64,000 nucleotides of DNA from a virus (IMGVR_UViG_3300013121_000027:32001-96000); one strand, 5' to 3'. Counted from the first letter of the stretch, positions 25,317 through 55,116 are shown. Numbers and translations are program-made. The notes: a model not told the origin generated them from the letters alone.

Positions 25317-25392
25317 CTGGCTGTATCCCCTCAATCTTATAAATTGTTGAAAGGGTAGATGGTACACGTGGGTTCAATCCCCACCAGCCAGA
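25317..25392 (+). tRNA. Non-canonical tRNA-like RNA, anticodon TAT (Ile), no conventional D arm
   Basis: CTGGCTG/CAGCCAG-A acceptor; CAAT-CTTATAA-ATTG; GTGGG-TTCAATC-CCCAC; D-loop-like TAGATGG lies 3' of the anticodon arm. Confidence 0.7.
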
Positions 25393-25928
25393 CTCTTTTG
25401 CTTGAATATAGGTTCAATTTATGGCTATCCTAGATTTTGTTATTTATGAAGATGATTTTTTAAATCGAAGATTTTGTCGTGAAAAACGTAAATATACATC
25501 TGCTCATTGTGAACGTGACCCTTCTCATGTTGAACGTAATGAACAACATATAGGTCGAGACATACTTGGTAGATATCATTTTTGGGACTTGCGCATAGAA
25601 CAATTAACTCTCTTTTAGCTACAAGGAACTAAATGCTATTTAAATTAGAAGTTGGATCTGTTCATACAGAATATAAGTATAACCATACTGTTATTACTTA
25701 TGAGATTAAATATACCTGTTATATGACTCCAGATCTTACCGATACCTGGCACGAAAAGAATATGAAGCACTTGGTTGACGCTGCTTTTCCAGAAGTTGAG
25801 GAAGCTGGAAGTTTTGGAAGATCTCTTAATGTACGATTCGTAAAAGTTAGCAGTCCAGTTGAAGATGACCAAAAAAATTGGATTCATACTTACCATTTAG
25901 ATCGTGATGTTCCTGGAAATGACTAACT

Positions 25929-26813
25929 GTGGAAACTAAATTAGATAAAATTAAGTTGCCTGCAAAGCTTAATTTAGAACAAAAAAATCTTTTAAACTTC
26001 TTCAATGATTTTTCTGGGTTTAACCCTAATCTTATTAATACTTATTTTGATTTTAAGAGGGGACATTACTATTTTCTTTTTCATGTTCCACCTACTTCTC
26101 ATCTAACTCATTTCCATCTTTATACATCTGATTTTTCTTTGCAAGTTCCCTTTCCTCATATGTATTTCTTTCTTAGTTTTACTATGAAGAGAATTGGTAA
26201 TGCGAATCAACTTTATATAAATGGGTTTATTAGAGATTTATATTTTGTTTCTGAACATATATTTGATCAGGATTTAGAATTACTTCCTAAATATAAACAT
26301 ACTACCCCAAATATTAGTTCGTTTCTTCCAAATATTAGAGATGAACATGCTTGTCTTGGGTATTCTTACGCCCAATATCATGAAGAAGAAGATGCTCTTT
26401 CTATAGCTTTAGCAAGAGTTTTTCAAAATTTCTATAGCTCAGTCTTTAATACTGATATTATGGACTTGAATTCTCCATCTTTGCATTATCTTCTTAGTCG
26501 TTTTTCTAATAAAGTAAAATTTAACTCTGATGTTATAAAATATATTTTGGAAGCTATTTCTAAAAACGTCAATGTAGAATCTTATATCTATAATAAAGCA
26601 AATCAGTGGACTGAATTTTGGAAAGACTATCAAAAACTTTTAGAAGCTCTTTCTAATGAATTAGGTTTTTGGGATAAACCATATATTGGTAAATTCTCTT
26701 CTCGTAAACCTCATCTTACAAAACCTTATGATTTAGATCTTTCTTATATTCCATATTTGAAATATTCCGATATGATTAGCCTTATCTCTAAGGCAAAATT
26801 CGATTATCTCTAA
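25929..26813 (+). CDS. Prokaryotic E2-like (Prok-E2_D / PRTRC protein B-like) protein
   Basis: VPFPHMYF...FLPNI....ACLG...FY.S.FNTD. Confidence 0.55.
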   Translation: METKLDKIKLPAKLNLEQKNLLNFFNDFSGFNPNLINTYFDFKRGHYYFLFHVPPTSHLTHFHLYTSDFSLQVPFPHMYFFLSFTMKRIGNANQLYINGFIRDLYFVSEHIFDQDLELLPKYKHTTPNISSFLPNIRDEHACLGYSYAQYHEEEDALSIALARVFQNFYSSVFNTDIMDLNSPSLHYLLSRFSNKVKFNSDVIKYILEAISKNVNVESYIYNKANQWTEFWKDYQKLLEALSNELGFWDKPYIGKFSSRKPHLTKPYDLDLSYIPYLKYSDMISLISKAKFDYL

Positions 26814-27282
26814 GGTAAAATTCCAATAGTCAATTCAAAAAATTGATAAAAAATTTTTGGTCGAAATCGACTTTTTAAAAGTCAAATTTTTTCTGGAAGA
26901 AAAATAAAAGCTATTGTTCATAAAAGCTATCAATGTTTTAAATTTTCCCAATTACTTTTATGAATGGATAGTTTAATGGGTCGCAAGAATAATAATTCGG
27001 TTTTATCCGATGTTATTGATTCTCGATATGAAGGTGCCTCTTCTCGTAAACGTACCTCTATGGATAATGCTGAACAATCTAAGCCCGGCAATAATATAAA
27101 GGATCCAGTTCGCTGTCCTTTATGTTCTGCAAAGCTTCTATGTCCACGTAATAAAGACTATGAAGAATTTATAGAGAACAAGATTTTACGCTGTACCACA
27201 AGCGGGGATCCCATTTGTAAGGCTGCTTGTTCTAATCCTAAAAACCAGGACTATATAGCTAAGCTAAAGAAGCGAGCTCACA

Positions 27283-28305
27283 ATGACTGAGATCGCTATT
27301 AAAGCCGTTAAAGCTAAGCCCGCTAAAAAAGAAGTTTCATTTTCTGATTTTCTTTATCAATCTATAGATGAACTCGTACAAGATGTTAGATTTACAAGCT
27401 CTAACTTGATAGCTGCTAATGTTGTGGGTTCTAATATAGGTAAAGGACTTGGGAGATTCTCGATTAATTTTATTTACTCTCTTGTTCCTGAAGTAAGAAA
27501 TGTCTTTTATACCTTTAGGGAAATAACAGCTGAAAAACTTGATAAAACATTTGCTATTCCATTTCCCAATAGATATCTTTCTATTCCATTAAGTTTTTCA
27601 AGTACTACATCTAATTATGGTGGAAAAACTGAAATAGCTGTTAGTTATTCTGCAAAAATTGGATTCTTACTTTATTCTGCTTTACATCAACATGACTTAG
27701 CCAAGCAGACACTTAATTTAAAATCTCATATAGGATCATTTTTATCTAATTCAAGATTCTATAACAGTGATTTAACTTTCTGTTCTGCTTGGGGATATAA
27801 CAAAAATTATAAGACTCATACCAAAGATCATTTGACTGAAGCCATCTATCAAACCCTTCAAAATTATTATTGGTCTCAATACAATAATCATTGGTTTGAA
27901 AATTGTTTACGTTCTCCTTCTATATTTTTGATGATGCGAGATTTATCCAAGGGTATAAAGTTTGAAGGTGTTGCCTTTCAAAAGATGCAAAAATTGAGTA
28001 AGACTAAACTTGCCACTCATGATGGATACATTAAGTCTGCATATTTTGCTCATGTTTATGGACTTCAACAAAATGAATGGAATAATCATCCCTCAATTTC
28101 CATGATAAAAGATTATTATAAATTACTTGAAGCTCTTCAAAAAGTTCCTGATTATTGGAATAATCTTTCCGAAAAAAAACACATAGTTGCCCCATTGGGT
28201 GGATTACTTAACTCTTTTTACCAAACTAAGAATCTTATTTATTTCAATGCAGAAAATCCAAAAGCATTTGTGGATTCACTACATAAAGCATTAACAAAGG
28301 CGTAA
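27283..28305 (+). CDS. Divergent prokaryotic E2-like protein
   Basis: FAIPFPNRY...FLSN.....TFC...YYWS.YNNH, in the same motif order as the other E2-like ORFs. Confidence 0.4.
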   Translation: MTEIAIKAVKAKPAKKEVSFSDFLYQSIDELVQDVRFTSSNLIAANVVGSNIGKGLGRFSINFIYSLVPEVRNVFYTFREITAEKLDKTFAIPFPNRYLSIPLSFSSTTSNYGGKTEIAVSYSAKIGFLLYSALHQHDLAKQTLNLKSHIGSFLSNSRFYNSDLTFCSAWGYNKNYKTHTKDHLTEAIYQTLQNYYWSQYNNHWFENCLRSPSIFLMMRDLSKGIKFEGVAFQKMQKLSKTKLATHDGYIKSAYFAHVYGLQQNEWNNHPSISMIKDYYKLLEALQKVPDYWNNLSEKKHIVAPLGGLLNSFYQTKNLIYFNAENPKAFVDSLHKALTKA

Positions 28306-28923
28306 GATGACAAATTTAACTGAAGTTCAAAATACTGAAGTAGTAGATGAAGAAGAATTTGATACATCTTCAGAAGCTGTTATGTATATAGAGCAGCTTC
28401 TGAAACAAGATCCACTAAATCTTTTTCCTATTATACCTGGAGCATTTGACACAGAAATTCAATTTCAAGAGCTTCTAAATTTCCTAGTCAGTCAATCATA
28501 TGTTTATGCTCCTGATGCTAAAAATGAAGATGATATAGTCTTTGATAGTGACACATATGCAGCTCTTCTTGAAAAAGTCTTAGCATCTATGTATAGTTAT
28601 TTTAATTTCACTGCTCAAATCCTAGGCTTAGCTAAGTTATATACTAATAATTTAACTAATTCTAATTTAATACCTATAGATCTTGAAGCTAAGAAATATG
28701 GAATAAAGATTGACGATTTATTTAAGTCTCCAGATATTCCTATTTATCTTTTCGTTAAAGCTTTATTTAAATTTGATTCTCAAAAGCAACTATATCCTAA
28801 CGTCTATAATATTGACAATATTATGAATTTCTATTCTATTCTTCCATCATCTATGCGTGATTTTCTCAATAAAGATATGGAAAAAATAATAAAAAAAGTT
28901 TATCCAGCGGAATCACAATAATT

Positions 28924-29385
28924 ATGGCGGCTGCTTCTTACATTCAAGCATTTATAGATGGCGCGACAAGAAATCAAGGAACTGGTCGTAAGACCGATTC
29001 TGCTTGTGCTTGCGTTATCTATCATAACAGAAAAGAAGTAGTTAGATTTGCAAGACCTATTGGGTCAAGAACTAACAATGCAGCTGAATACGAGGCATTG
29101 ATTCAATGTCTTTTAATTTGCTCTATGAGTGACTTTAATCGTCCCATTATTTATTCTGATTCTGCTGTAGTAGTTAATCATACTAAGGGTATATGGAAGT
29201 GTAGATCTGAAGATCTTCTTCCTTATTACATGACTGTTAAACAACTACAAGAAGAAAATCCATTTGATATAGTTCAAGTTCCAAGAGATAAAGTATGGCT
29301 TCCAGATAGACTTTGTAATGAGGCATTAGATCAATTGGAAGAGCAAAGGAATTTACTTAAATTAATTTCTGTTAGGAATGAGTAA
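28924..29385 (+). CDS. rnhA: Ribonuclease HI
   Basis: FIDGA, TNNAAEYEAL, YSDS.VV, VPR...D.L.N.ALD catalytic motifs. Confidence 0.9.
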   Translation: MAAASYIQAFIDGATRNQGTGRKTDSACACVIYHNRKEVVRFARPIGSRTNNAAEYEALIQCLLICSMSDFNRPIIYSDSAVVVNHTKGIWKCRSEDLLPYYMTVKQLQEENPFDIVQVPRDKVWLPDRLCNEALDQLEEQRNLLKLISVRNE

Positions 29386-30105
29386 TTAATATGAATTATG
29401 ACGATGATGATATCTTTAAGAAAAATGATGACGATATTCTTCAAACATCTTCATTTTCTTCTTCAGAACGCGTAAGAGGTCTTAATGTCCCAGGTTATCT
29501 TCGTGATGCTCTTGAGCGTTATATAAAAGATAATCCTGGTTTTGGAAATTCATTTAAGCAATTTCAAAATAATGAATTTAAGAATATCTATAAAGTTATA
29601 GATCTCTTTTCTTCTGTTCAAAAGATGTTGATTAAATTTGCTCCCGATACTTCTTATGGACCTCTTGCCAGGGCTTTAACTCATGTTCTTGATAGCGCTT
29701 ATGAAGGCGCTATTCAAAGAACCTATAAGGCTATCGTTATAGAGTCTGATCTTATTGCTCTTCATATGAACTTGAATTTCTTGTCTTCAACTCAAGAAGC
29801 TATTATAAATTCAGGACAAGAACTTCATGAAGCTGGTGAAATCTTTTATCAATTTCTCCTTACTTCAATAGAATTAACTATTTTCTGCATTAAACAAAAG
29901 GCGATAGATTACGTCTCCGCTTGTGAAACTTCTAATCTTAAACCAGATACTAATATAATTGAATATGGTTTTCGTAAAGAAGCAGATTTTCCATTTGATG
30001 TAGGAACTAAAGCTTATACTATAGGATATCATTATATTTATGGAGATGTCAGAGATGTTTCCGTAAATTACGAAGCCTCCATACGAAATAACTTCATTAA
30101 GTATT

Positions 30106-30630
30106 TTGTTCCAATGTTGTATAAAGATGAGGCTAAGGCATATGAGTCAATCTCCGCTAATATTGCCTGAAGAACGAATCCAAGGTACTTATCCGGAATT
30201 TCAAAAAGAAATAAAACAACGTTCAATTGAATGTCAAATAGCATTAGATAATGATGCAGCTTGCCGACGACAAGGGCTTCATCCGTATTTTCTAAATCCA
30301 GCTAAAGCTCAATTTGTTATTCAAACTTTCTGTAAGGAATGTTTGGTTCGACAATATTGTTTAGATCTTGCCTTAATAGATCAAATAGAACCTGGAACTT
30401 GGGGTGGCTTTGATGAATTTTATAGAAAAGGAATTCTTACTGCCACAAGACGAGAATTTTGCGCTAAAAACCCAGACGTAAGTCCATCTATTCTTCCATC
30501 TCATCATCCTGATTTTTGGAATCTACTTCAGCTTAGATTTACTCAGGCTGCTAAAAGTCCTAAAAGACTTTATACCAAGCTTGGAATACCTCTTAGAAAA
30601 AGTAAAGATAAGAATTATTTAGCTCTTTAA
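30106..30630 (+). CDS. WhiB-family Fe-S transcription factor (true start probably ATG 30142)
   Basis: AAC...C..C.VR..CL..AL...GTWGG. Confidence 0.8.
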   Translation: MFQCCIKMRLRHMSQSPLILPEERIQGTYPEFQKEIKQRSIECQIALDNDAACRRQGLHPYFLNPAKAQFVIQTFCKECLVRQYCLDLALIDQIEPGTWGGFDEFYRKGILTATRREFCAKNPDVSPSILPSHHPDFWNLLQLRFTQAAKSPKRLYTKLGIPLRKSKDKNYLAL

Positions 30631-31348
30631 TACAATAAGATACGATACATAGTCATTTAACTTCAATCGAAAGACTCCATGTACGTGTCCTCAAATCAAT
30701 CATTATATAAGGCTATCTATTTTCAAATTTCGAAACATATTGATAATCTTACAGAAAAAATTTTCATCACTAATAATTTAAAATTTCTGGATTTACAAGT
30801 AACGCAACGACTCATAAGAGTTTTTACGTCTTTGTTATCTTTCTTGGCTACTTTGTATGAATTTGTATATTACTGCATTTCAATGCGATTTACCCAATTG
30901 ATTGTCTAACAACTTTTAAGGAGTTCTTCTGCATGTTTGACATTGAGAATATATCTACAGGCATTGACAAGCCGGTTGATCCAGCTGATAAAGATTTTAA
31001 GTTTTCTTTTCAAGTTGGATCTCATCCCGATTTTCTATCTCAAAAAATAGATTACCGCAATGCTTTAGCAAGTAGATTAGAGCGTTTGATCACGGAACCT
31101 ACTGTAGATGGTCATCCCTATATTCAATACTTGTTTAAAAATATTGAGCGTCCAACCTCAGAAGAACTCCTTATTTTATCTAAGGCTTTAGAACGTATTA
31201 GCCAACTTATTGAACCTTTTAGAAAGCTTGATGAAGAAGTAAAGGGATTGGTATGGGCAAGAGAAAATGCAAAGTTAGTTGCGTGTGCTTTTGGAGATTT
31301 TCCAGTCCCTGACATTCAAGATTTTCTTAACCCCTGAAATTATACTGT

Positions 31349-33055
31349 ATGAAATATGTAATAGATACCGAAAATAAAACCGTTATAGGTCCATTATCTA
31401 ATCTTGAAAAAGCTGCCGATACTTTTTCTTTTCCTGTTGCGAAACTAATTGAAAATGCATCTGCTCTTGCTCGAATTGAAACTGGTCTTCTTCCAGTCCA
31501 AGGCTCTGGACTCGTTTCTTATCGAGCAGCTGCTGAGCATGAACAAATTGTGATTCAATTAGAACCTGGTATTTATACTGTAAAATGGGGACAAAGAGAA
31601 CGCGATGTCAATGCTCAGCTTTTTAGCTTAGCAATGCCTTATCGTATAATTATTGCTGATTTTTATAAAAATGAATTTTTGGGTTCCCGTCATTTCTTTT
31701 CTATGACTCCAGCTTACTCTTGGGATCTTCAACTCTATGTAACTGGATTCTCCAATACAAATAATCTCGGCTATGCCGATACTTCTATTGGTTGGATTTG
31801 TCATTATCATAATAATGCGGGTAAAGAATGTAAAAATCTTAGTGAAAAGATTGACTATGTAATAGATCGTGAATCTGGATTAGGCGAGCCATATAACTAT
31901 AATAATATGAGCGAAACCGATGGTCCTAAATTCTATAGCAAGTTTATGCCCACTAAAACTCATTTTCATAATGCAAGTCATTGGGCGAATAAAACTTCTA
32001 AAGAGGGATTGGATTGGGTTTTCGATCCATCTAATTTTATTCCTTATTCTACTATTGCAACCGATGCTTTCGCCGCTAAAGAATATGTAGATCCTGCTCA
32101 AAAGGGAGCAAAACTATATACTCTTTATGATGCTACTCATAAGCAATATATACCTTATTATCCTCATAGAATTCCATATGCCAAAGAGTTAAAGCCATTC
32201 AATCAATCAATTACCGACATTAATCCTACTCCTTCTTTAACTTCTTTATTATTTACTTTAAAAAGAGATCCAGTAAAATTTGTTCCTCTTTTACAGCAAG
32301 AAGAATTTGGTATAGATATTGCTTCCTTTGAATTTTCCCAAAAAGCTCTTCAAATAAAAAATATTCTTGAAAGTAAAATCTGTCCTCACTGTAATAAAAT
32401 ATTCCCTCAAATGGAAAAATTTACTTCTGTTCTTGTCGGCATTGATACCGTTGAAAAAATAGTGACAGAAAGTGACATGTGGTGTACGCATTGTGTCGCT
32501 ACTTCAACTGCTCAAATCGATATTCATGGAGATACTTTTCCTGCATCTACAGATATATTGCTTTGGAGCGAGCACTATAGTCTATACTTCCTACCCTTTG
32601 ACATTACTGAATGTCCAGGTTGTGGAGAATGTCAGCCAAACAATATAGATACTTCTGACTTTTTTGTTTATGGATTGGATTTCGATAATCCCATTGGATG
32701 TGTTAACTGTCTATATTCTGAAGACGATGAAGCTCTTTATGTTTGGGATCCATTCATTAAAAAGTATTTCATTAACGAATTAGCAGTTGAAGTTCAAACT
32801 CTTCAGATGTTACCAGATCCTCAAACCTTAAAGATATCGGTTTGTCAAGCGCTACAACTTGTCCATCCTACAACCGCAGAACATATTTGTAATTGTGGCA
32901 TGTATATAGATGATCCACTTTCTAAGTGCGTAAGTAAAAAAAAAGAAGATAATTCTTTGACATGTGTCACGTGCGTGAATAAAGAACTTATATCTACAGG
33001 TCCACAAATCACTGAAGTTGTTTTAGATACCAAAGGAAAAACCATAGATGAATGA
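31349..33055 (+). CDS. E2-like (Prok-E2_D) domain fused to a Cys-rich multi-zinc-finger C-terminus
   Basis: LAMPYRIII...GFSN......GWICHY...YNYN, followed by several CxxC pairs; first gene of the JAB/E1/Ubl operon. Confidence 0.6.
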   Translation: MKYVIDTENKTVIGPLSNLEKAADTFSFPVAKLIENASALARIETGLLPVQGSGLVSYRAAAEHEQIVIQLEPGIYTVKWGQRERDVNAQLFSLAMPYRIIIADFYKNEFLGSRHFFSMTPAYSWDLQLYVTGFSNTNNLGYADTSIGWICHYHNNAGKECKNLSEKIDYVIDRESGLGEPYNYNNMSETDGPKFYSKFMPTKTHFHNASHWANKTSKEGLDWVFDPSNFIPYSTIATDAFAAKEYVDPAQKGAKLYTLYDATHKQYIPYYPHRIPYAKELKPFNQSITDINPTPSLTSLLFTLKRDPVKFVPLLQQEEFGIDIASFEFSQKALQIKNILESKICPHCNKIFPQMEKFTSVLVGIDTVEKIVTESDMWCTHCVATSTAQIDIHGDTFPASTDILLWSEHYSLYFLPFDITECPGCGECQPNNIDTSDFFVYGLDFDNPIGCVNCLYSEDDEALYVWDPFIKKYFINELAVEVQTLQMLPDPQTLKISVCQALQLVHPTTAEHICNCGMYIDDPLSKCVSKKKEDNSLTCVTCVNKELISTGPQITEVVLDTKGKTIDE

Positions 33056-34295: not shown

Positions 34296-34951
34296 GGGAC
34301 ACGGTTGCCCCCTTCGATCATAAAGATCGCCCTAGCCCTGCGTATAGGTTAATATCGTGTCCCGAATGCTATTCTGATTTTGATGATTATACCTACACAA
34401 CTGGCAAGCCTGTCTTAGCTGATCTTTGGTTCTGTACCTATTGTGGTTGCGGAGTTCAAGATTACTTCATTCTAGGAACTGAAGTCTGTTGGTTTGTAGA
34501 CAGTATTGATCTTATAGATGAATTTGAATTTCTTTATGAACCAATTTCTGCGATGACCCAATTGGATCTACAGAATTCGTTTACTTGTTTATGTTGCGAT
34601 CTTCCTATCGAAGATTGTCAAACTTATGGTCAACCCAGATTCAATATTTCTCAAATAAGCATTGAGGACTATATGATTGATCATCATATTATGCGCAGAG
34701 ATATTTATAATGAAAACTTTTCGGATTGCTGCACATGCCAGTTCTATATGACAGATGCTTGTGTTCCTTTAAGAAATATTATTCGTTTTTACCATCAAGC
34801 CAAAGTCATTCCATCCTTTAATTTAGTCGGATGTTATGATTATGAGCAAAATGATGATGCTGATGAATATCTTAACGCATTAAGTGATCAAAAATTTCAA
34901 TCAGAAAAAGAAAAAGATACAATTGTCTTGCCTAAAAAATATACACTTTAA
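34283..34951 (+). CDS. Cys-rich domain probably expressed by -1 frameshift from the JAB gene; extends track ORF 34553-34951
   Basis: Frame is open from 34265 with no ATG/GTG/TTG until 34553, yet encodes CPEC...CTYC; slippery C CCA AAA at 34283-34289. Confidence 0.65.
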   Translation, partial: PKSLGDTVAPFDHKDRPSPAYRLISCPECYSDFDDYTYTTGKPVLADLWFCTYCGCGVQDYFILGTEVCWFVDSIDLIDEFEFLYEPISAMTQLDLQNSFTCLCCDLPIEDCQTYGQPRFNISQISIEDYMIDHHIMRRDIYNENFSDCCTCQFYMTDACVPLRNIIRFYHQAKVIPSFNLVGCYDYEQNDDADEYLNALSDQKFQSEKEKDTIVLPKKYTL

Positions 34952-34959
34952 GGATACTA

Positions 34960-35754: not shown

Positions 35755-35788
35755 TATATAAACACATACAATAAAGGATATATATAAC

Positions 35789-36043: not shown

Positions 36044-36069
36044 TTTAAGCCCTAAAGACCTTCGGATCC

Positions 36070-36120
36070 TTTCTCCCTGTTGTCGAGCGTTGTATCAATG
36101 GCTTGACTTCGGGGAGAGGG
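36070..36120 (+). terminator. Long hairpin after the Ubl gene
   Basis: TTTCTCCCTG..GTCGAGC pairs with GCTTGAC..CGGGGAGAG. Confidence 0.5.
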
Positions 36121-36130
36121 ATCTGATACA

Positions 36131-48620: not shown

Positions 48621-48661
48621 TATAATACTAATTACATACATGTAAAATAAAAAGGATTTAA

Positions 48662-49360
48662 ATGACAAAGAAAAATTACACTCATATTACTGCCGTTGTA
48701 GATCGTTCTGGATCGATGGTGACCATTCAGGAAGATGCCCAAGGTGGTATTAACCAGCTTATTGTAGCAAATAAAGAAGCTCCTGGTCAATGTACCTTTG
48801 CTCTCTATCAGTTTGATACAGAATTCGAAACTGTAGTTGCACCATCAAACATTTCTATGGTCGGAGAGTATACTCTTGTACCTCGTGGTGGAACTGCCCT
48901 TCTTGATGCTCAATGGAAAGCTATTCAACTAACTGGTGAATATCTTAAGTCTTTACCAGAAAAACAACGTCCTGAAAAGGTTATCTTCATCACCGTAACT
49001 GATGGTGGGGAAAATATGTCAAAGGAAATTGTTGGATGGCAAGGTACACAAAACCTTAAGAATAAAATTGAAGAGCAGAAGAATAAGTATTCTTGGGATT
49101 TCGTTTACATTGGCGCCAATCAGGACGCTTTTGCTGTCGGTCAATCAATGGGAATTAATACTACTACTACCTATATACCAAATACCTGGTCCACTAAGGC
49201 TATGTACGGCAATCTTGCGACCGCTACTGTGACCTCACGTGCTACAGGCGAATCAATGACTAATTATCTTGCTTCGTCTGTCACTGCTGATGGCACTCTT
49301 GTCTTTGATAAGAAAGACAAAGAGGAAAAGAAAGAAGCTACAACTGGAGATAATAAATGA
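48662..49360 (+). CDS. vWA-domain protein
   Basis: MIDAS motif DRSGSM; PRGGTALLDA; TDGGEN. Confidence 0.9.
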   Translation: MTKKNYTHITAVVDRSGSMVTIQEDAQGGINQLIVANKEAPGQCTFALYQFDTEFETVVAPSNISMVGEYTLVPRGGTALLDAQWKAIQLTGEYLKSLPEKQRPEKVIFITVTDGGENMSKEIVGWQGTQNLKNKIEEQKNKYSWDFVYIGANQDAFAVGQSMGINTTTTYIPNTWSTKAMYGNLATATVTSRATGESMTNYLASSVTADGTLVFDKKDKEEKKEATTGDNK

Positions 49361-49725
49361 ACGTATAGGGTAAATTATACCTTTTCATTAGATCAGATTT
49401 ATCACCTGGGTTAATTACTGCTCAGGCTTGTCATGTTGCTATGTCTGCATGCGAGAAATGGGATTTATATCCTGACAATATAGTTGTTGTATTGGATGGA
49501 GGTAAATCCGAAGATGATCTAATGATTCTTTTAGACAAGTTGACTTGGTGGTGTGGCAATTCTGAATTTTGGGAAGAACCGCGCTTAGGAGACGATGACG
49601 TTGTCGTTTTCCGTGAACCAGATCTTCTTGAGGACATGACAGGATTTGCAATAGTTCCTGGCAAACTTCCTGATTGGGTCTTATCCATCCCTCTTCTGTT
49701 TTCGGAAGGGGGTGAATCTAAATGA
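49357..49725 (+). CDS. Pth2-like peptidyl-tRNA hydrolase with an in-frame TAG at codon 4
   Basis: ATG AAC GTA TAG then GKLYLFIRSDLSPGLITAQACHVA...FREPDL..MTGFA; GGAG RBS and ATGA overlap with the vWA stop. Confidence 0.75.
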
Positions 49726-50038
49726 CTATAGGTACAATCCTCTCCACTGAAGAGCGCTTGCAAGAACAAGTAAATTCTCTTCGCCAACAGGTTGGCAATT
49801 TAAACTACGAACTGTATCACTACAGAGACGAAAATAAAAAACCTTCCTGGCTTCAGGCAAAGATGATGAGTCAAGCTAAAGCTCTTACGAATTTGAATAA
49901 AAGAGTTCGTATGCAGCGGCTTATTCTCAGAGAGTTGAATGTTATTAATCCTGAACTCGCAGATACTATATTTAACTTGGTTAAAGATAAGTATCCAGTC
50001 GAGTTAAATGATCAAATACAATTAACTTTCTAACAGAT

Positions 50039-50078
50039 TTACCTTCTGGAGTTTCGCGGAACGTACTCCAGGAGGTAA
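50039..50078 (+). other. 14 bp hairpin immediately 5' of the suppressor tRNA
   Basis: TTACCTTCTGGAGT pairs with ACTCCAGGAGGTAA. Confidence 0.6.
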
Positions 50079-50081
50079 TAC

Positions 50082-50155
50082 GGTTTCATAGTTCAATGTA
50101 GAACGACATCCTCTAAAGATGTGCGTTGCGGGTTCAAGTCCCGCTGAAACCTCCA
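50082..50155 (+). tRNA. Amber suppressor tRNA (anticodon CTA) with encoded CCA
   Basis: GGTTTCA/TGAAACC-T-CCA; GTTC-AATGTA-GAAC; ACATC-CTCTAAA-GATGT; GCGGG-TTCAAGT-CCCGC. Confidence 0.9.
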
Positions 50156-50355
50156 TGAATAACCATCCCCTAATAGGCAGATGTGTCGAGCTTGTTGAAA
50201 TGATAGACGATCCAGATCCAATTCCCTATGGTGCAAGAGGGACTGTGATGCGTGTTGTTCGATTTTTAGAAACAGAAGTTATAACTGTTAATTGGGAAAT
50301 AAAAAGATGTTTAAATCTTGTCTCACCACCCGATAAATATGTTATAATAGATTAG
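50155..50355 (+). CDS. DUF4314-like protein; ATG overlaps the tRNA CCA
   Basis: G..VELVEM.DDP.PIP.GA.GTV...I.V.W....LNLV...D. Confidence 0.7.
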   Translation: MNNHPLIGRCVELVEMIDDPDPIPYGARGTVMRVVRFLETEVITVNWEIKRCLNLVSPPDKYVIID

Positions 50356-50378
50356 TAAGAAAAGTAAAAAGGTTTATT

Positions 50379-50443
50379 GTATGAACCGAATTTGAAGCGT
50401 TATCTTCTGGTGGTAAAATGCTTCATTGTTAACTTGTTCATAC
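50379..50443 (+). ncRNA. Y RNA-like unit 1
   Basis: GTATGAAC-CGAA...ACTT-GTTCATAC terminal helix; inner TGAAGCGTT/AATGCTTCA; TTATC. Confidence 0.75.
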
Positions 50444-50458
50444 TCAAGTTTAAAGCTT

Positions 50459-50526
50459 TGAACCGAATTGAAAACGATTATCTAATTGTAAATAGAACCC
50501 AAACTCGTTTTCTATCAACTTGTTCA
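50459..50526 (+). ncRNA. Y RNA-like unit 2
   Basis: TGAAC-CGAA...ACTT-GTTCA; inner GAAAACGA/TCGTTTTC; TTATC. Confidence 0.75.
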
Positions 50527-50538
50527 TTGCTCAGTTTA

Positions 50539-50663
50539 GTTAGAGCCGAACTTCAATTGATTATCATAGGTTCGAATCCCATAACCCCTAACGGGGGTTG
50601 CGCACCGGCGTTTGGTGCACCCAGTATAGTTCTGGGTTTCAATTGGAAAATACTTGTTCTAAC
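50539..50663 (+). ncRNA. Y RNA-like unit 3 with T-arm-containing cargo
   Basis: GTTAGAGC-CGAA...ACTT-GTTCTAAC; GGTTCGAATCC T arm followed by three hairpins. Confidence 0.8.
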
Positions 50664-50672
50664 ATTATTTAA

Positions 50673-50787
50673 ATCTTAAGCCGAATTTAAACGATTATCG
50701 CATATGGTTGACGAAGATGACACCAATAAGTCCATCTGAGCGGTTCGAATCCGCATTAAAATTCGTTTGAAATCCCTTGCTTAAGAT
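50673..50787 (+). ncRNA. Y RNA-like unit 4
   Basis: ATCTTAAGC-CGAA...CCTT-GCTTAAGAT; GCGG-TTCGAAT-CCGC T arm. Confidence 0.8.
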
Positions 50788-50795
50788 ATTTTTAT

Positions 50796-50928
50796 GTCAA
50801 AGCCGAATAAAATTCTTTATCGCCTTTCAAGCGGGTGGTCACAGGTTCAAATCCTGTCAAGGGCTAATTCCCTTTGTAGCTCAGTCCGGTAGAGCACCTA
50901 AACGAGGATTTTAAAAACTTGTTTTGAC
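50796..50928 (+). ncRNA. Y RNA-like unit 5, YrlA-type circularly permuted tRNA mimic
   Basis: GTCAAAGC-CGAA...ACTT-GTTTTGAC; T arm ACAGG-TTCAAAT-CCTGT, then closed acceptor AAGGG-CTAATT-CCCTT, then D arm TA-GCTC-AGTCCGGTA-GAGC. Confidence 0.85.
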
Positions 50929-50936
50929 GCCCTCTA

Positions 50937-51098
50937 ATTAAGAACCGAATTTAAACGATTATCATTTACCATACAACGGCAGAGATAGTATCGAAGCCAA
51001 CAAGAAGTCTCCTTGTAAAAAGAGAAAGATAAGCTACAAATAAGCGGAATCGCTGTAGTAATACAGTTATAATTCGTTTGAAGCAACTTGTTCTTAAT
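50937..51098 (+). ncRNA. Y RNA-like unit 6 (longest cargo)
   Basis: ATTAAGAAC-CGAA...ACTT-GTTCTTAAT; inner TTTAAACGA/TCGTTTGAA; TTATC. Confidence 0.75.
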
Positions 51099-51106
51099 AT
51101 CTCTTA

Positions 51107-51195
51107 ATCTTAAACCGAAATAATATGGTTCTCAGCAGCGTCTAACAGACAGTGGTTCGACTCCACAACCCGTATTAGCTCAACTTGTTTAAGAT
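51107..51195 (+). ncRNA. Y RNA-like unit 7
   Basis: ATCTTAAAC-CGAA...ACTT-GTTTAAGAT; GTGG-TTCGACT-CCAC T arm. Confidence 0.75.
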
Positions 51196-51243
51196 GCATT
51201 TTATATTTATCTTGTTCCCATCACATAGAAAGGAGAACCGAAA

Positions 51244-52827
51244 ATGACTACCGATCCTCTGATGCAGTTCAATATGCAGACCACTCCTCAGACTCAGCAA
51301 GCTGATAAGGCTCAGGTCCAGAATAATGCTGGTGGGTTTTCTTTTGAGGTTTCTACCGATCAGCGTCTGCTTCGTTTCTTAATTCTTGGTACTTGGGGCG
51401 GAACTTATTACGTCTCTGAGCAGAAGCTTACTAAGGATTCTTTCGAGAATGTTAAGAAGCTGGTTGACATTGACGGAAAGAAGGTTGTTGATATGGTACT
51501 TGATGTATCGCTCAACAACCGTGCTTATAAGCAGAACCCAACTCTGTTCACTCTCGCTGTAGCTTCTGCCGCTGATGACGTTGAGACTCGTCGCTATGCT
51601 CTTGCCGCTGTAGAAAAGGTATGCCGTACTGGCACCATGTTCTTCCAGTTCCTTGCTTATACTGAGCAGTTCCGTGGCTGGGGTTCCGCTCTTCAGAAGG
51701 CTGCTGCCAATTGGTACACTAATAAGACTCCCGATCAGCTTGCTAATCAGCTTGTCAAGTACCGTCAGCGTGATGGTTGGACTCACCGTGACGTTTTGCG
51801 TCTTGCAAAGCCTAAGATCGCCGCTGACAACCCTATCACGCCAGCTATTCGTTGGACCGTAGGTAAGGATACCGATCCCATTCTGCTTCCAGAGCTGATC
51901 TATGGCTTCCAGGAAGCTCAGAAGGTCACCAATGCTAAGGAGTGGGTGAAGCTTATCGAGCAGTATAAGCTTCCTTGGGAAGCTCTGCCAACCCAGGCTC
52001 TCAATGAGCCTTTGGTTTGGGAAGCTCTTGCTCCCCATATGGGATTGACTGCCTTGATTCGTAATCTTGGTAAGATGAGCGCCTGTGGTGCTCTTGTAAA
52101 CCATAGTGATCTTTCTAAGATTGTCAATGGTCGCCTCAGCGACAAGGAAGCATACCTCAAGGCTCGCGTACATCCAATGCAAGTTCTTCTTGCTCAGAGT
52201 GTTTACTCTGCTGGACGCGGCTTTAAGGGTAATAATACCTGGAATCCAGTTGCAACTGTTGTAGATAATCTTAATGAGGGATTCTATGCTGCATTTGGCA
52301 ACCTTCCAGAAACTGGTAAGCGTCGTATGCTTGCCATTGACGTGTCTGGGTCAATGGGCATGGGCACAATTGCTAATACCTTCTTGACGCCTCGTGATGC
52401 CTCTGCTGCACTTGCTATGGTAGCCCTTCACCAGGATCCGGAAAGCTATACCTTTGGCTTCTCTGGTGGCTTCATTCCTCTTGGCTTGTCCAAGGGTATG
52501 CGCTTGGATTCTGTTATTAAGAAGGTCAATGGTCTTCCTTTTGACAGAACCGATTGTGCTCTGCCTATGGTACACGCAAAGAAGGATCAATTGAAGGTGG
52601 ATTCATTTGAAATCTATACTGACAACGAGACCTGGGCTGGTAAGATTCATCCTCATCAGGCATTGAAGGACTACCGTGCTTGGTCTGGCATCAATTCCAA
52701 GTTTGTTGTAAATGGTATGGTCGCAAACAACTTTACTGTTGCCGATCCTAAGGATCCAGGATCGATCGACGTAGTTGGTTTCGATGCCTCTACCCCAAGC
52801 ATGGTATCAGATTTCATTTGCCAATAA
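51244..52827 (+). CDS. rsr: Ro60/TROVE RNA-binding protein (Rsr ortholog)
   Basis: NNAGGFSF, RFLILG..GGTYY, KYRQRDGWTHRDVLRL, ALIRNLGKM, DVSGSM vWA, TDNETW, GFDA..P. Confidence 0.95.
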   Translation: MTTDPLMQFNMQTTPQTQQADKAQVQNNAGGFSFEVSTDQRLLRFLILGTWGGTYYVSEQKLTKDSFENVKKLVDIDGKKVVDMVLDVSLNNRAYKQNPTLFTLAVASAADDVETRRYALAAVEKVCRTGTMFFQFLAYTEQFRGWGSALQKAAANWYTNKTPDQLANQLVKYRQRDGWTHRDVLRLAKPKIAADNPITPAIRWTVGKDTDPILLPELIYGFQEAQKVTNAKEWVKLIEQYKLPWEALPTQALNEPLVWEALAPHMGLTALIRNLGKMSACGALVNHSDLSKIVNGRLSDKEAYLKARVHPMQVLLAQSVYSAGRGFKGNNTWNPVATVVDNLNEGFYAAFGNLPETGKRRMLAIDVSGSMGMGTIANTFLTPRDASAALAMVALHQDPESYTFGFSGGFIPLGLSKGMRLDSVIKKVNGLPFDRTDCALPMVHAKKDQLKVDSFEIYTDNETWAGKIHPHQALKDYRAWSGINSKFVVNGMVANNFTVADPKDPGSIDVVGFDASTPSMVSDFICQ

Positions 52828-52831
52828 TAGA

Positions 52832-52964
52832 TTTCCTGTAGTAGACTTAACAGAACGATCAATAAGCTCAAAGTCCTTCGATTAGTCGAGCCTTATCTCT
52901 CTGAAAATGGCGGAGAGGAGCGAAGTTGTGTGGTGAAGAATCGGAATTCCACACCTACAGGAAA
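52832..52964 (+). ncRNA. Putative multibranch structured RNA downstream of rsr
   Basis: 10 bp closing stem TTTCCTGTAG/CTACAGGAAA with four internal hairpins. Confidence 0.5.
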
Positions 52965-52972
52965 CTTTTATT

Positions 52973-53728
52973 ATGACAAGAATCTTACTCGCAGGCGATA
53001 TACACGCCTCTCATTATCAAATAAAACTTTTAATTGAGAAAGCGCAACAATCTCATTGTACTCATATCATAGCCCTTGGGGATTTTGGATTTTTCCCTGG
53101 CAATAGATACTTTAATGATTTCTTATCTAAAGTGAATTATATGGTTTGTGATGCGGGAATTCATTTCTGGTGGCTTGATGGGAACCATGAAAATCACGAC
53201 GCCTTAGATGTGATGACACAGGGTAGAAACGATCAGATGTTCATCACCTCTTATAATGGAACCAGTTATAGTAATATTTATTATCTCCCAAGAGGATATA
53301 GATTTGAACTTGACGATGTAAAATTTATGTCATATGGTGGAGCTTATTCCGTTGATAAAGATGGACGTACGCAAGGCTTTGATTGGTTCCCGCAGGAAGA
53401 ACCTGATATCGCACATATCTCTAATCTTTCAGACGATCCAGTTGATATTTTACTCACTCATGACATACCTTATGACGATGCTTTTGTTTATCATAATGAA
53501 AGCATTAGTCAACTTGAACACGGAATAAAAAGTCAAAAAATTAGAAAAAGACTTTTATATTTGGCGCAAAAAATAACACCACGATATTGCTTCGGAGGTC
53601 ATCATCATCGTAGAGTTACCTATAATATACTCCATCGTAAAGGCGTTGCAGAGTGCCACATTCTTAGTTGTGGTGGGAATGGTAATGATTCTTGGTTTAT
53701 TCTTGACACGGAAAAAATAAATAAGTAA
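52973..53728 (+). CDS. Calcineurin-like metallophosphoesterase
   Basis: GDIH, GDFG, DGNHEN, LLTHD.P, GHHH. Confidence 0.9.
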   Translation: MTRILLAGDIHASHYQIKLLIEKAQQSHCTHIIALGDFGFFPGNRYFNDFLSKVNYMVCDAGIHFWWLDGNHENHDALDVMTQGRNDQMFITSYNGTSYSNIYYLPRGYRFELDDVKFMSYGGAYSVDKDGRTQGFDWFPQEEPDIAHISNLSDDPVDILLTHDIPYDDAFVYHNESISQLEHGIKSQKIRKRLLYLAQKITPRYCFGGHHHRRVTYNILHRKGVAECHILSCGGNGNDSWFILDTEKINK

Positions 53729-53756
53729 TTATTATACTCATTAAGGATACAATAAT

Positions 53757-54791
53757 ATGTCTGTTGCGACAGAAGAACTTACAATTGAAAAAATAAGTAA
53801 TTTGACTAAGGAAAAGATTAAGCCATTGAGAGACATTGGTTTGATGGCTCTTCCTTATGCTCATGGACCTCTTGGTAAGAATATCTTTACGATGGCATTG
53901 GATCAAGATTCTGAAGTCTTGAGATTCTGGACTGGTACTGCGGATCTTAAGGTGGTTGATACGACTACTGAACCGAAGAAGCAAGCCGTTATTAGGGTTG
54001 TTGAATCTGGACATACTTTAACTTTTAAATGTCTTGTTCGTCGTGGAACAATCAATTATGCACAAATCGATACCACACAACAAAACATTATAGATCGTGC
54101 ACAAAAAATTACTCCTGGTCTTTTACAGCGACTCATCAATACAACTCTTCCTCCTAAAACTATTTTTAAAGTAGCGAATGCAAAAACAGTTTTGACTAAC
54201 CGAGGCAACTTCCATGATGTTGAGGTTGGTGAAAGATTTGATTGCTATATCACCATTGAAGCTACTGTTCCTGCTTTTGACGATTCTTTTTTGATTGGTT
54301 ATGATGAGCAGAAATGCTTTATTTCTCAACTTCCAGTTCATGTCAATAAGGTTAAGGATGCTTATAAAGTTCTTCGTCCTGAAGGAGTAAGCCCTAAGGC
54401 TTTACGCCAAGGTGAATGGTTCTTTAATCCAATAAAAGATCCTGCTCTTATCGCTAAGTTGAATAAGATTGAAGAGAAACAAGCTCCTGCAGCAGATAGA
54501 AGAGGCTTAACTGGGCTCGATACTATGTTTGCTCGCGATTACTATGTTAAACTTCGCAACAAACTTGGAACACAGCACGTAACCCCCTCCTCTATACTTC
54601 GTTCTTTAGCAAGAGGATCTTCGCATCATGCCAACTACATTGATCATGCTGGTAAGAGATATGTAAAGGGTTCTGTTGTGGATTCTCGCAAAGCACGTCA
54701 TGCTCCATTAGAAATAAAGACCTGGCATGAAGTAATACGTAATCTTGAGAAGGTAATGCCAGTGACTGCTCGCCCCCGTAGATGGGATTAA
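53757..54791 (+). CDS. Conserved hypothetical phage protein (RQGEWFF motif)
   Basis: LIGYDE...F...LP...L.P...RQGEWFF.P...H. Confidence 0.6.
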   Translation: MSVATEELTIEKISNLTKEKIKPLRDIGLMALPYAHGPLGKNIFTMALDQDSEVLRFWTGTADLKVVDTTTEPKKQAVIRVVESGHTLTFKCLVRRGTINYAQIDTTQQNIIDRAQKITPGLLQRLINTTLPPKTIFKVANAKTVLTNRGNFHDVEVGERFDCYITIEATVPAFDDSFLIGYDEQKCFISQLPVHVNKVKDAYKVLRPEGVSPKALRQGEWFFNPIKDPALIAKLNKIEEKQAPAADRRGLTGLDTMFARDYYVKLRNKLGTQHVTPSSILRSLARGSSHHANYIDHAGKRYVKGSVVDSRKARHAPLEIKTWHEVIRNLEKVMPVTARPRRWD

Positions 54792-55037
54792 TAAGTAGAC
54801 ATAATGGATATAGTTGTCTATACTATAATGTGGTGGGGCGGATATGATGAACCTGCAGTTTTTATGTCCGCCGATCCACAACAGATAAAGAAAAAATATG
54901 ACGAGTGGAATGAACTTATGAGTGATGAGGATCTTGTTTCTATTTATTTATGGAGCAAGAATCTTCCCACTTCTGAATATTCTCCCACTCAAATAGATAT
55001 AGAAGATCTAATAGATATAGAATAACTATAAAGGTTT

Positions 55038-55116
55038 GCCTCAGTATCGGTCCGGGTTTCTACCCCGTCATTAACACCGTAATTGGAGTATGCAGGTTCG
55101 AATCCTGTCTGAGGTA
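55038..55116 (+). tRNA. Non-canonical tRNA-like RNA, anticodon TCT (Arg), no conventional D arm
   Basis: GCCTCAG/CTGAGGT-A; CGGG-TTTCTAC-CCCG; GCAGG-TTCGAAT-CCTGT; TAATTGG lies 3' of the anticodon arm. Confidence 0.7.

What the first reader, a model, noticed from the sequence alone, without database searches (positions are those of the whole stretch)
25317..55116. Two tRNAs with the same rearranged topology (25317-25392 Ile-UAU; 55038-55116 Arg-UCU)
Seen: both have a 7 bp acceptor stem, a good T arm and a 7-nt anticodon loop, but only about 8 nt (TATC...) between acceptor and anticodon arm, so no D arm. The region 3' of the anticodon arm is long. It holds a strand complementary to the short 5' linker (CCCT/AGGG; CGGT/ACCG, a compensatory difference) followed by a D-loop-like TA..TGG. 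Two unrelated sequences sharing this layout argues for a real fold, not decay. Inference: an alternative route to the L-shape in which the D-loop GG comes from the variable-region side. The anticodons read AUA and AGA, which are frequent in this AT-rich phage and rare in high-GC hosts. Standard tRNA finders may miss or mis-score them.
Basis: partly seen in the sequence, partly recalled or inferred. Interest (0 to 1): 0.82.

Follow-up and report, generated by a model that had tools for sequence, protein, structure and literature searches.

The report
Phage Ile and Arg tRNAs, rewired D-arm
Both elements are real, conserved phage genes, most likely for working isoleucine (AUA) and arginine (AGA) tRNAs; their D-arm is not missing but joined in a different order around the anticodon arm, a non-cloverleaf layout shared by hundreds of phages that gene finders mostly miss.

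Summary
Observation confirmed; interpretation supported by comparative evidence, with no RNA or charging data. Both genes (25317-25392 Ile-UAU; 55038-55116 Arg-UCU) have a 7-bp acceptor stem, a canonical T arm and a 7-nt anticodon loop. Only 8 nt lie where the D arm should be. ARAGORN misses both. Rfam's tRNA model scores them about 30 bits, with the D arm deleted.

Homologs occur in at least 269 (Arg) and 47 (Ile) GenBank phage records and over 100 IMG/VR contigs, from hosts as far apart as Streptomyces, Klebsiella, Rhizobium and Bacteroides.

Across 78 distinct genes:
- a 3-bp helix enclosing the anticodon arm is paired in 77 and covaries, with at least 12 helix sequences;
- the base two positions after the helix pairs with the last base before the T stem (A:U 65, G:C 13, no mismatch), like the 15:48 Levitt pair;
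- the base after the conserved GG is A in all Arg genes and U in all Ile genes, matching the position-20 identity rules of bacterial ArgRS and IleRS.

This phage has no other tRNA-Arg. AGA makes up 42% of its Arg codons and AUA 33% of its Ile codons.

I found no paper describing this layout. Earlier follow-ups in this scan reported the same class in at least 38 other genomes.

The parts
25317..25392 (+). Rewired tRNA-Ile(UAU) gene, 76 nt, short-connector type; no encoded CCA
   Evidence: (49.8 bits with the Arg-only model R1); sits in the 160-nt gap between + strand ORFs 24619-25260 and 25421-25618
25317..25323 (+). Ile: acceptor 5' strand CTGGCTG; pairs with 25385-25391 (CAGCCAG); discriminator A at 25392
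   Evidence: the acceptor pairs covary in the family; A73 in 35 of 35 Ile-type genes
25324..25329 (+). Ile: U8-A9, then U + CCC, the strand that plays D-stem positions 22-25
   Evidence: columns 11-13 pair with 37-39 in 100% of cells, with changes on both sides at 2 of 3 pairs
25331..25347 (+). Ile: anticodon arm, U.U (27.43) plus 4 bp CAAT/ATTG, loop CTTATAA; anticodon UAU at 25338-25340
25348..25352 (+). Ile: 5-nt connector UGAAA between the anticodon stem and the returning D-stem strand (takes the place of variable-loop positions 44-47)
   Evidence: conserved as NGAAA
25353..25355 (+). Ile: GGG, the strand that plays D-stem positions 10-12; pairs with 25327-25329
25356..25367 (+). Ile: UAGAUGGUACAC = U13, A14, G15, two nt, G18 G19, U20, two nt, A21, C48 equivalents
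   Evidence: R15:Y48 covariation; U after GG in 35 of 35 Ile genes
25368..25384 (+). Ile: T arm GTGGG-TTCAATC-CCCAC
55038..55116 (+). Rewired tRNA-Arg(UCU) gene, 79 nt, long-connector type; the only tRNA-Arg of the 231-kb phage
   Evidence: (92.4 bits); no canonical tRNA-Arg found; fills the gap between ORF 54804-55025 and the next + strand ORF
55038..55044 (+). Arg: acceptor 5' strand GCCUCAG; pairs with 55109-55115 (G1.U72); discriminator A at 55116
55045..55050 (+). Arg: U8-A9, then U + CGG (D-stem 22-25 equivalents)
   Evidence: columns 11-13 with 40-42 are 100% paired; 12:41 is UA11/GC10/AU2 and 13:40 is CG18/UA4/GC1
55052..55068 (+). Arg: anticodon arm, C.U (27.43) plus CGGG/CCCG, loop UUUCUAC; anticodon UCU at 55059-55061
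55069..55076 (+). Arg: 8-nt connector CAUUAACA (family consensus CRUUAANN)
55077..55079 (+). Arg: CCG (D-stem 10-12 equivalents); pairs with 55048-55050
55080..55091 (+). Arg: UAAUUGGAGUAU = U13, A14, A15, U16 U17, G18 G19, A20, two nt, A21, U48 equivalents
   Evidence: A after GG in 43 of 43 Arg genes; A15:U48
55092..55108 (+). Arg: T arm GCAGG-TTCGAAT-CCTGT

Best explanation
Both loci most likely encode functional elongator tRNAs, tRNA-Ile(UAU) for AUA and tRNA-Arg(UCU) for AGA/AGG. They belong to a large, almost purely phage-borne class with a rewired core.

In a canonical tRNA the chain order is acceptor, 8-9, D stem 10-13, D loop 14-21, D stem 22-25, 26, anticodon arm, variable loop 44-48, T arm. 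In this class the order is acceptor, U8-A9, then directly the 22-25 strand (U-C-N-N), 26, the anticodon arm, a 5-8-nt connector, the 10-13 strand (N-N-G-U), the D loop (A14 R15 .. G18 G19 N20 .. A21), then Y48 and the T arm.

The D stem therefore closes around the anticodon arm instead of forming its own hairpin. Every layer of the canonical core can still form: 13.22, U8:A14, R15:Y48, and G18G19 against the T loop. This should give an ordinary L-shape with a standard 7/5 acceptor-T helix, an ordinary anticodon loop, and position 20 exposed for the synthetase.

Shown here: conservation, helix covariation, the R:Y tertiary covariation, the link between anticodon and position 20, encoded CCA in many members, and the codon demand of this phage.

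Inferred: transcription, processing, charging by host IleRS and ArgRS, use on the ribosome, and the 3D equivalence.
For: 1. Wide conservation. The Arg type is in 269 GenBank phage records (Felixounavirus, Vequintavirinae, T5-like Sugarlandvirus, 350-kb jumbo phages, Streptomyces and Rhizobium phages). The Ile type is in 47 records, including Streptomyces, Rhodococcus and crAss-like Kehishuvirus phages. More than 117 IMG/VR contigs match. Only 2 MAG contigs match among 185,579 species genomes.

2. Covariation. In A2 (23 Arg genes) and A3 (15 Ile genes) all helices covary. The enclosing 3-bp helix is 100% paired, with changes on both sides at 2 of 3 pairs in each family. No shuffle out of 500 reaches the observed values, and sliding the partner by +/-1-3 columns drops pairing from 96-98% to 34-49%. 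In 78 genes found with a pattern that leaves the anticodon free, the helix is fully paired in 77, with at least 12 different helix sequences.

3. All-against-all mutual information on equal-length sets. This ranks 12:41 (1.54 bits) and 13:40 among the true stems.

4. Tertiary pair. R15-like:Y48-like is A:U 65 and G:C 13, with no A.C or G.U. In A3, where Y was not constrained by the search pattern, it is AU8, GC6, other 1.

5. Identity elements. The base after GG is A in 43 of 43 Arg genes and U in 35 of 35 Ile genes. Inside one 79-nt scaffold it switches together with the middle anticodon base (C/A 42, A/U 14). The discriminator is A in 35 of 35 Ile genes and G, A or U in 42 of 43 Arg genes. 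This matches the bacterial identity sets: Arg A20, C35, U/G36, A/G/U73; Ile A73, U20, A35, U36 (Table 1 of PMC9976931).

6. tRNA-gene hallmarks. 34 of 79 genes encode CCA right after the discriminator (about 1 expected by chance), and 48 of 79 have another T-loop motif within 300 nt on the same strand. In GenBank records the genes sit between or directly after annotated tRNAs.

7. This phage. It has no other tRNA-Arg. AGA is 42% of Arg codons and AUA 33% of Ile codons. Both genes fill intergenic gaps on the coding strand.
Against: - There are no RNA-level data: expression, end processing, modification and aminoacylation are all untested.
- RNAalifold does not recover the 3-bp helix on the Arg alignment. 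The large asymmetric internal loop is penalised, and the single-sequence MFE of the Arg gene prefers a small local hairpin.
- G18, G19 and the T loop are invariant, so the elbow contact cannot be tested by covariation.
- The 27:43 position is often a pyrimidine-pyrimidine mismatch.
- The role of the conserved connector (CRUUAAN or NGAAA) is unexplained.
- Exceptions exist: one Arg gene has U after GG (L170:974-1047), one Ile-GAU gene of a longer subtype has A after GG (L172:5182-5262), and Peregrin has G.G at the 15:48 position.
- A later check noted in this scan's records gave a sister report's bold reading only 30/100.
Confidence: 0.78

Rival explanations
1. They are tRNA-like RNAs that are not used in translation. 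They could be decoys or sponges for host anticodon nucleases or other tRNA-directed defence proteins, or RNase P/Z processing punctuation between phage genes.
For: No charging data exist. Another note on this genome describes anticodon-less tRNA-like processing elements (e1-5664451). Phage tRNAs are known to counter tRNA-targeting defences (PMC10264068 and PMC11555353, listed). The Ile gene lies away from the tRNA clusters, between small ORFs.
Against: A decoy or a processing signal does not need the anticodon-specific position-20 base, A73 in all Ile genes, a strict 7-nt loop with U33 and A37, or an encoded CCA. This phage has no other tRNA-Arg although AGA is its commonest Arg codon. The acceptor/T helix keeps the 7/5 geometry that EF-Tu needs.
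Confidence: 0.1
2. They are functional but truly D-armless, flexible tRNAs of the mitochondrial kind. The linker helix only lengthens the anticodon stem, and the GG segment is an unstructured large variable loop that does not rebuild the canonical core.
For: The Rfam alignment treats them exactly this way, with the D arm deleted and a large variable insert. The helix is only 3 bp. Elbow contacts cannot be shown by covariation.
Against: Mitochondrial D-armless tRNAs lose the G18G19 and T-loop conservation and need adapted partner proteins. Here UA-R..GG..A-Y and the GTTCRA T loop are nearly invariant across hosts from four bacterial phyla. The R:Y covariation (78 of 78) and the anticodon-linked base after GG are what the canonical 15:48 pair and position 20 predict. 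The 12-nt length of the segment is tightly conserved.
Confidence: 0.09
3. They are decayed or rearranged tRNA pseudogenes, for instance damage left by the HNH endonuclease cassettes that split several tRNA genes in this genome.
For: HNH cassettes break tRNA genes in this phage (e1-5664390 and e1-5664413). HNH genes abut Arg-type members in several phages.
Against: More than 90 distinct sequences keep all four helices through compensatory changes, hold a fixed length (76 or 79 nt) and have perfect acceptor stems. Pseudogenes do not covary.
Confidence: 0.02

Closest known systems
Canonical class I phage and bacterial tRNA-Arg(UCU) and tRNA-Ile (E. coli argU; phage T4 tRNA-Arg and tRNA-Ile, recalled from my own knowledge; this window's canonical tRNA-Ile(GAU) at 8792-8866)
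   Same: 7-bp acceptor stem, 5-bp T stem with a GTTCRA loop, 7-nt anticodon loop with U33 and A37, U8-A9, A14, R15, G18G19, A21 and Y48 equivalents, the position-20 identity base, the discriminator, and often an encoded CCA. The presumed job is the same: supplying AGA and AUA decoding to an AT-rich phage.
   Different: The chain connectivity of the core differs. The 22-25 strand follows A9 directly. The 10-13 strand and the D loop come after the anticodon arm. There is no separate variable loop: A21 runs straight into Y48. A 5-8-nt conserved connector links position 43 to position 10. The result is not a cloverleaf, ARAGORN misses it, and RF00005 scores it about 30 bits against 42-67 bits for most of the window's ordinary tRNAs.
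D-armless mitochondrial tRNAs (e.g. human mt-tRNA-Ser(AGY), Ascaris mt-tRNA-Ser(UCU); PMC7609411, PMC9427863)
   Same: Only a short linker lies between the acceptor and anticodon stems. Standard finders need special modes to see them.
   Different: The mitochondrial forms have lost the D loop and the elbow contacts and rely on co-evolved synthetases and factors. The phage class keeps all the D-arm parts in a new order and occurs in phages of unrelated hosts with ordinary translation machinery.
Allo-tRNAs and other 8/4 or 9/3 tRNAs of bacteria and phages (Mukai et al., PMC5389517)
   Same: Non-canonical tRNAs found by sequence mining, some of them in phages, and missed or misannotated by standard tools.
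   Different: Those change the acceptor/T-stem split and keep a normal D hairpin. Here the 7/5 split is normal and the D arm is rewired. The paper does not describe this layout.
Permuted and split tRNA genes (Cyanidioschyzon merolae, PMC3728597; archaeal split tRNAs)
   Same: tRNA parts appear in a non-standard order along the gene.
   Different: In those cases the gene is permuted but processing restores a normal cloverleaf RNA. Here the acceptor 5' and 3' strands are at the ends of the gene, so the mature RNA itself must carry the new connectivity.

Membership tests
tRNA (Rfam RF00005, canonical cloverleaf) | 7-bp acceptor stem with a discriminator, and 5-bp T stem with a 7-nt T loop (GTTCRA) | tested here: met
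tRNA (Rfam RF00005, canonical cloverleaf) | Anticodon arm with a 7-nt loop, U33 and a purine at 37 | tested here: met
   Loops CUUAUAA and UUUCUAC; family loops. The 27:43 pair is often mismatched.
tRNA (Rfam RF00005, canonical cloverleaf) | A D hairpin (10-13 / 14-21 / 22-25) between position 9 and position 26 | tested here: not met
   Only 8 nt lie between the acceptor and anticodon stems. cmscan deletes the 15 D-arm model positions.
tRNA (Rfam RF00005, canonical cloverleaf) | Score at or above the family gathering threshold (29 bits) | tested here: inconclusive
   30.6 bits (Arg) and 29.6 bits (Ile). The Ile gene was lost to the filters in the whole-window run.
tRNA (functional definition) | Processed to a mature RNA, CCA-terminated, aminoacylated and used on the ribosome | not testable with these tools
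   Indirect support only: encoded CCA in 34 of 79 relatives, identity elements, codon demand.
Substrates of bacterial ArgRS (identity set A20, C35, U/G36, A/G/U73; PMC9976931) | A at position 20 of the D loop, C35, U36 or G36 | tested here: met
   A directly after GG in 43 of 43 Arg-type genes, including the window's (GGA). C35 and U36/G36 in all. Discriminators G25, A12, U5, C1. That this A is the equivalent of position 20 is inferred.
Substrates of bacterial IleRS (A73, U20, A35, U36, A37, A38, plus C4-G69, U12-A23, C29-G41; PMC9976931) | A73, U20 and the anticodon-loop determinants | tested here: met
   A73 in 35 of 35, U after GG in 35 of 35, A35, U36 and A37 in all. The stem determinants (U12-A23, C29-G41, C4-G69) are not kept in the window gene: the 12:23 equivalent is G:C.
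D-armless mitochondrial-type tRNA | D arm replaced by an unpaired connector, with loss of the G18G19/T-loop elbow signature | tested here: not met
   The linker pairs with a covarying 3' strand, and UAR..GG..AY and GTTCRA are conserved.
Class II tRNA (long variable arm) | A self-contained variable-arm hairpin together with a normal D arm | tested here: not met
   No hairpin is predicted or covaries in the 3' segment, and there is no D hairpin.
Permuted tRNA gene | The 3' half is encoded upstream of the 5' half, with the acceptor ends internal to the gene | tested here: not met
   The acceptor strands are at the two ends of the gene and covary.

The most novel reading that the evidence does not exclude
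The rewired core is a second natural solution to the tRNA L-shape. Host ArgRS, IleRS, EF-Tu, RNase P and ribosomes of at least four bacterial phyla accept it. Phages keep it because it gives an advantage a cloverleaf cannot, for example escape from host nucleases or defence proteins that read the D-arm face or the variable loop of tRNA-Arg and tRNA-Ile. It could have arisen once, by duplication and deletion within a tRNA gene, and then switched identity between Arg and Ile by changing the anticodon together with position 20.
Probability: 0.25. Interest if true: 0.92.

Novelty: new variant of a known kind. Interest (0 to 1): 0.8.

Why it matters
tRNA architecture outside animal mitochondria is treated as essentially invariant. 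[quoted passage not shown]

If these RNAs are charged and used, three things follow:
- A natural non-cloverleaf tRNA works with unmodified bacterial machinery in many hosts. That is directly testable in E. coli, because Felix O1-like, rV5-like and T5-like coliphages carry the Arg type.
- Phage tRNA repertoires and codon-supply analyses are systematically incomplete. Most GenBank records leave these genes unannotated or label them tRNA-OTHER, tRNA-Val or tRNA-Leu.
- The scaffold would be a ready-made chassis for tRNA engineering, and a probe of which core contacts synthetases, EF-Tu and the ribosome really need.

For this phage in particular, its only tRNA-Arg and its AUA reader are of this class.

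Tried and rejected
- A hidden canonical cloverleaf in another register: none exists. cmscan can only delete the D arm.
- Minus-strand reading: rejected, because the GGTTCRA T loop and the anticodon loops read correctly only on the + strand. The minus-strand Rfam hits are weak mirror images.
- A fourth helix pair (14:39): mostly mismatched in the family.
- An alternative local hairpin between the connector (GUUA) and UAAU of the D-loop-like segment, as in the MFE of the Arg gene. RNAalifold does not predict it, mutual information gives it no support, and it is impossible in the short-connector Ile type.
- A third member in this genome: none. The whole 231 kb was scanned with filters off.
- Other amino-acid identities: a pattern that leaves the anticodon free returned only Arg and Ile. 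L030:9-84 looked like a D-armless Ser but is an ordinary tRNA-Ser cut by the end of the locus.
- Conserved protein neighbours in the window: eight flanking ORFs have no Pfam match.
- Promoter and terminator scan around the Ile gene: nothing above the shuffled background.
- Literature: nine full-text searches and four papers read found no description. The library lacks most subscription journals, so this is absence in what I could search, not proof of absence.

Full report
**The observation**

Each has a 7-bp acceptor stem, a canonical T arm with a GTTCRA loop, and a 7-nt anticodon loop with U33 and A37 (CUUAUAA with UAU; UUUCUAC with UCU). Only 8 nt lie where U8, N9, the D arm and N26 (about 19 nt) should be. 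A 21-24-nt segment containing UA-R-..-GG lies between the anticodon stem and the T stem.

ARAGORN reports 17 tRNAs in the window but neither of these. Rfam's tRNA model aligns them at 30.6 and 29.6 bits, against a threshold of 29. It does so by deleting its 15 D-arm positions and inserting 17-20 nt before the T arm. Both genes sit on the coding strand in intergenic gaps that they nearly fill.

**Relatives**

BLAST against GenBank phages finds the Ile element in 47 records. These include Streptomyces phages such as Coruscant, Jay2Jay and EGole, Rhodococcus phage Peregrin, and a crAss-like Kehishuvirus of Bacteroides.

The Arg element is in 163-269 records: Felixounavirus, Vequintavirinae, T5-like Sugarlandvirus, 350-kb jumbo coliphages, and Streptomyces and Rhizobium phages. 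Most records annotate nothing there. A few say tRNA-OTHER, tRNA, tRNA-Val or tRNA-Leu. In those records the elements lie directly after or between ordinary tRNA genes.

Three pattern scans of IMG/VR gave 34, 18 and more than 117 contigs. The same Arg pattern hit only two MAG contigs among 185,579 species genomes. The class is therefore essentially phage-borne.

**Secondary structure**

I made two MAFFT alignments that were not fitted to any structure: A2 (23 distinct Arg genes, 79 columns) and A3 (15 distinct Ile genes, 78 columns).

On both, 96-98% of cells in the proposed structure form standard pairs, against about 72% after shuffling. No shuffle out of 500 reaches any observed measure. Sliding the 3' partners by 1-3 columns drops pairing to 34-49%.

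The helix that encloses the anticodon arm is 100% paired in both families:
- Arg: 12:41 is UA11/GC10/AU2, and 13:40 is CG18/UA4/GC1.
- Ile: 11:39 is CG12/AU1/UA1/UG1, and 12:38 is CG11/AU2/GC1/UA1.

RNAalifold recovers this helix on A3 but not on A2. A covariance model built from the Arg genes alone (R1) scores the window's Ile gene at 49.8 bits and every canonical tRNA of the window at 22.6 bits or less. The shared layout is therefore a property of the molecules, not of my drawing.

**A wider and less biased sample**

I used a pattern that fixes only UAUC, GUAR, GG, AY and GGTTCRA and leaves the anticodon arm free. It returned 79 distinct genes with good acceptor and T stems. Their anticodons are only UCU (41), UAU (34), UCG, CCU and GAU.

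In the 78 that parsed, the 3-bp helix is complete in 77, with at least 12 different sequences. Because most genes are exactly 79 or 76 nt long, I could compute mutual information between all position pairs without any alignment. The top pairs are the proposed stems, including 12:41 (1.54 bits) and 13:40 (1.02 bits).

**Tertiary logic**

Mapping onto standard numbering gives:
- acceptor 1-7
- U8, A9
- U-C-N-N as positions 22-25
- one or two nt as position 26
- the anticodon arm, 27-43
- a connector (NGAAA or CRUUAANN)
- N-N-G-U as positions 10-13
- A14, R15, two or three nt, G18 G19, N20, two or three nt, A21, Y48
- T stem from 49

Three results support this mapping.

First, R15 and Y48 covary perfectly: A:U 65 and G:C 13, with no A.C or G.U. 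In A3, where Y was not constrained by the search, the count is AU8, GC6 and one exception. In the 76-nt set it is AU11, GC11, GG1 with 1.0 bit of mutual information. This is the behaviour of the Levitt pair.

Second, the base after GG is A in all 43 Arg genes and U in all 35 Ile genes. Within a single 79-nt scaffold it switches together with the middle anticodon base (C/A 42, A/U 14; 0.81 bit). Table 1 of Giege and Eriani (PMC9976931) lists A20, C35, U/G36 and A/G/U73 for bacterial Arg identity, and A73, U20, A35 and U36 among the Ile determinants.

Third, all 35 Ile genes have A73.

It is my inference from the known tRNA structure, not a result, that A9 lies next to 22-23 and A21 next to 48 in canonical tRNA, so that the new chain joins are sterically plausible.

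**Hallmarks of tRNA genes and the fit to this phage**

34 of 79 relatives encode CCA directly after the discriminator (about one expected by chance). 48 of 79 have another T-loop motif within 300 nt on the same strand.

The window lies in a complete 231,459-bp virus record with terminal repeats and 38% GC. Scanning all of it with R1, filters off, finds no third member.

ARAGORN finds canonical tRNAs for most amino acids but none for Arg, so the rewired gene is the phage's only tRNA-Arg. In 159 long ORFs, AGA is the commonest Arg codon (42%, 18.4 per thousand) and AUA makes up 33% of Ile codons (23.4 per thousand). A canonical tRNA-Ile(GAU) at 8792-8866 covers AUU and AUC.

**What is not shown**

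Nothing here shows that the RNAs are made, trimmed, modified, charged or used. The elbow contact cannot be tested by covariation because G18, G19 and the T loop do not vary. The conserved connector has no assigned role; docking into the D-stem groove like positions 44-46 is a guess.

Exceptions and further subtypes exist:
- a 74-nt Arg gene with U after GG (L170:974-1047);
- a subtype with a 17-18-nt D-loop-like segment and a perfect 5-bp anticodon stem (L154:38-118, L163:3906-3987, L172:5182-5262);
- an Arg(ACG) relative without the GG (L139:5174-5253);
- a possible Tyr(GUA) relative (L169:10875-10968).

**Known or new**

Nine full-text searches and targeted reading found no description of this layout. 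I read the review of non-canonical tRNAs (PMC7609411), the allo-tRNA paper (PMC5389517), the paper on tRNA gene fragments (PMC9897764) and the identity review (PMC9976931). A 2024 paper states that all known bacterial tRNAs are cloverleaves (PMC11551756). The searchable library omits most subscription journals.

Within this scan the class is not new. Earlier follow-up reports describe the same rewired Arg and Ile tRNAs in at least 38 and 25 other genomes, and reached the same reading. One was later checked at 'seen 93/100, bold reading 30/100'. The claim of another, made on other DNA, was checked and marked 'part of it fell'. The notes do not say which part, so I have avoided calling the genes wholly unannotated or exclusive to phages.

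**Verdict**

These are two intact members of a large phage family of Ile and Arg tRNAs with a strand-swapped D arm. I rate them as a new structural variant of a known kind, of high interest to tRNA and phage biologists, pending RNA-level proof.

Noticed in passing
window 50082-50155: An intact tRNA with anticodon CUA (amber suppressor). ARAGORN calls it tRNA-Pyl, and Rfam's tRNA model scores it 62.5 bits. Another note on this window links it to an amber codon in a Pth2-like gene.
   Followed up: no
whole genome G000 (window = 32001-96000): ARAGORN finds no canonical tRNA-Arg, Cys or Trp in the 231-kb phage, while most other amino acids are covered. The rewired Arg(UCU) gene is the only Arg decoder.
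   Followed up: partly
L008:56-132, L010:56-133, L065:2053-2130, L070:8178-8255, L076:2509-2586: Rewired Ile(GAU) genes keep a U.U mismatch at acceptor pair 6:67 (8 of 15 sequences in A3), although the rest of the stem covaries. The UAU-anticodon members pair normally there. The reason is unknown.
   Followed up: no
L154:38-118, L163:3906-3987, L172:5182-5262, L139:5174-5253: A third subtype of the rewired layout: a perfect 5-bp anticodon stem, a 3-4-nt connector, and a 17-18-nt D-loop-like segment ending in AAAU. Anticodons are Ile GAU and Arg ACG. The ACG member lacks the GG and has a UUUGACU T loop.
   Followed up: partly
L169:10875-10968 (- strand): A 94-nt candidate with a perfect acceptor stem and T arm, a GUA (Tyr) anticodon loop, and only 8 nt in place of the D arm. 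ACG early in that linker could pair with CGU just before AGUGGG in a long 3' segment. It may extend the class to Tyr. It scores only 32 bits with R1.
   Followed up: no
L170:974-1047: A 74-nt Arg(UCU) member with a 3-nt connector and U rather than A after GG. It is the one Arg exception to the A20 rule that I saw.
   Followed up: no
L005 (Klebsiella phage Roth37) and records: HNH endonuclease genes start 8-10 nt after the Arg-type gene in T5-like and Felix O1-like phages. This is the same pairing of HNH genes with tRNA genes that other notes describe for this genome.
   Followed up: no
L008, L010, L012 (Streptomyces phages Coruscant, LilMartin, EGole): The rewired Ile(GAU) gene always lies between a nucleotidyltransferase gene and an FtsK-like translocase gene. 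In Coruscant the translocase CDS is annotated over part of the tRNA. In EGole the gene is annotated as tRNA-Leu (UUA), a misreading of the CUGAUAA loop.
   Followed up: no
79-nt scaffold: One and the same 79-nt long-connector scaffold carries either Arg(UCU) or Ile(UAU). The switch is accompanied by A to U after GG, by A1:U72, and by an A discriminator. This suggests identity switching between the two amino acids within the class.
   Followed up: partly
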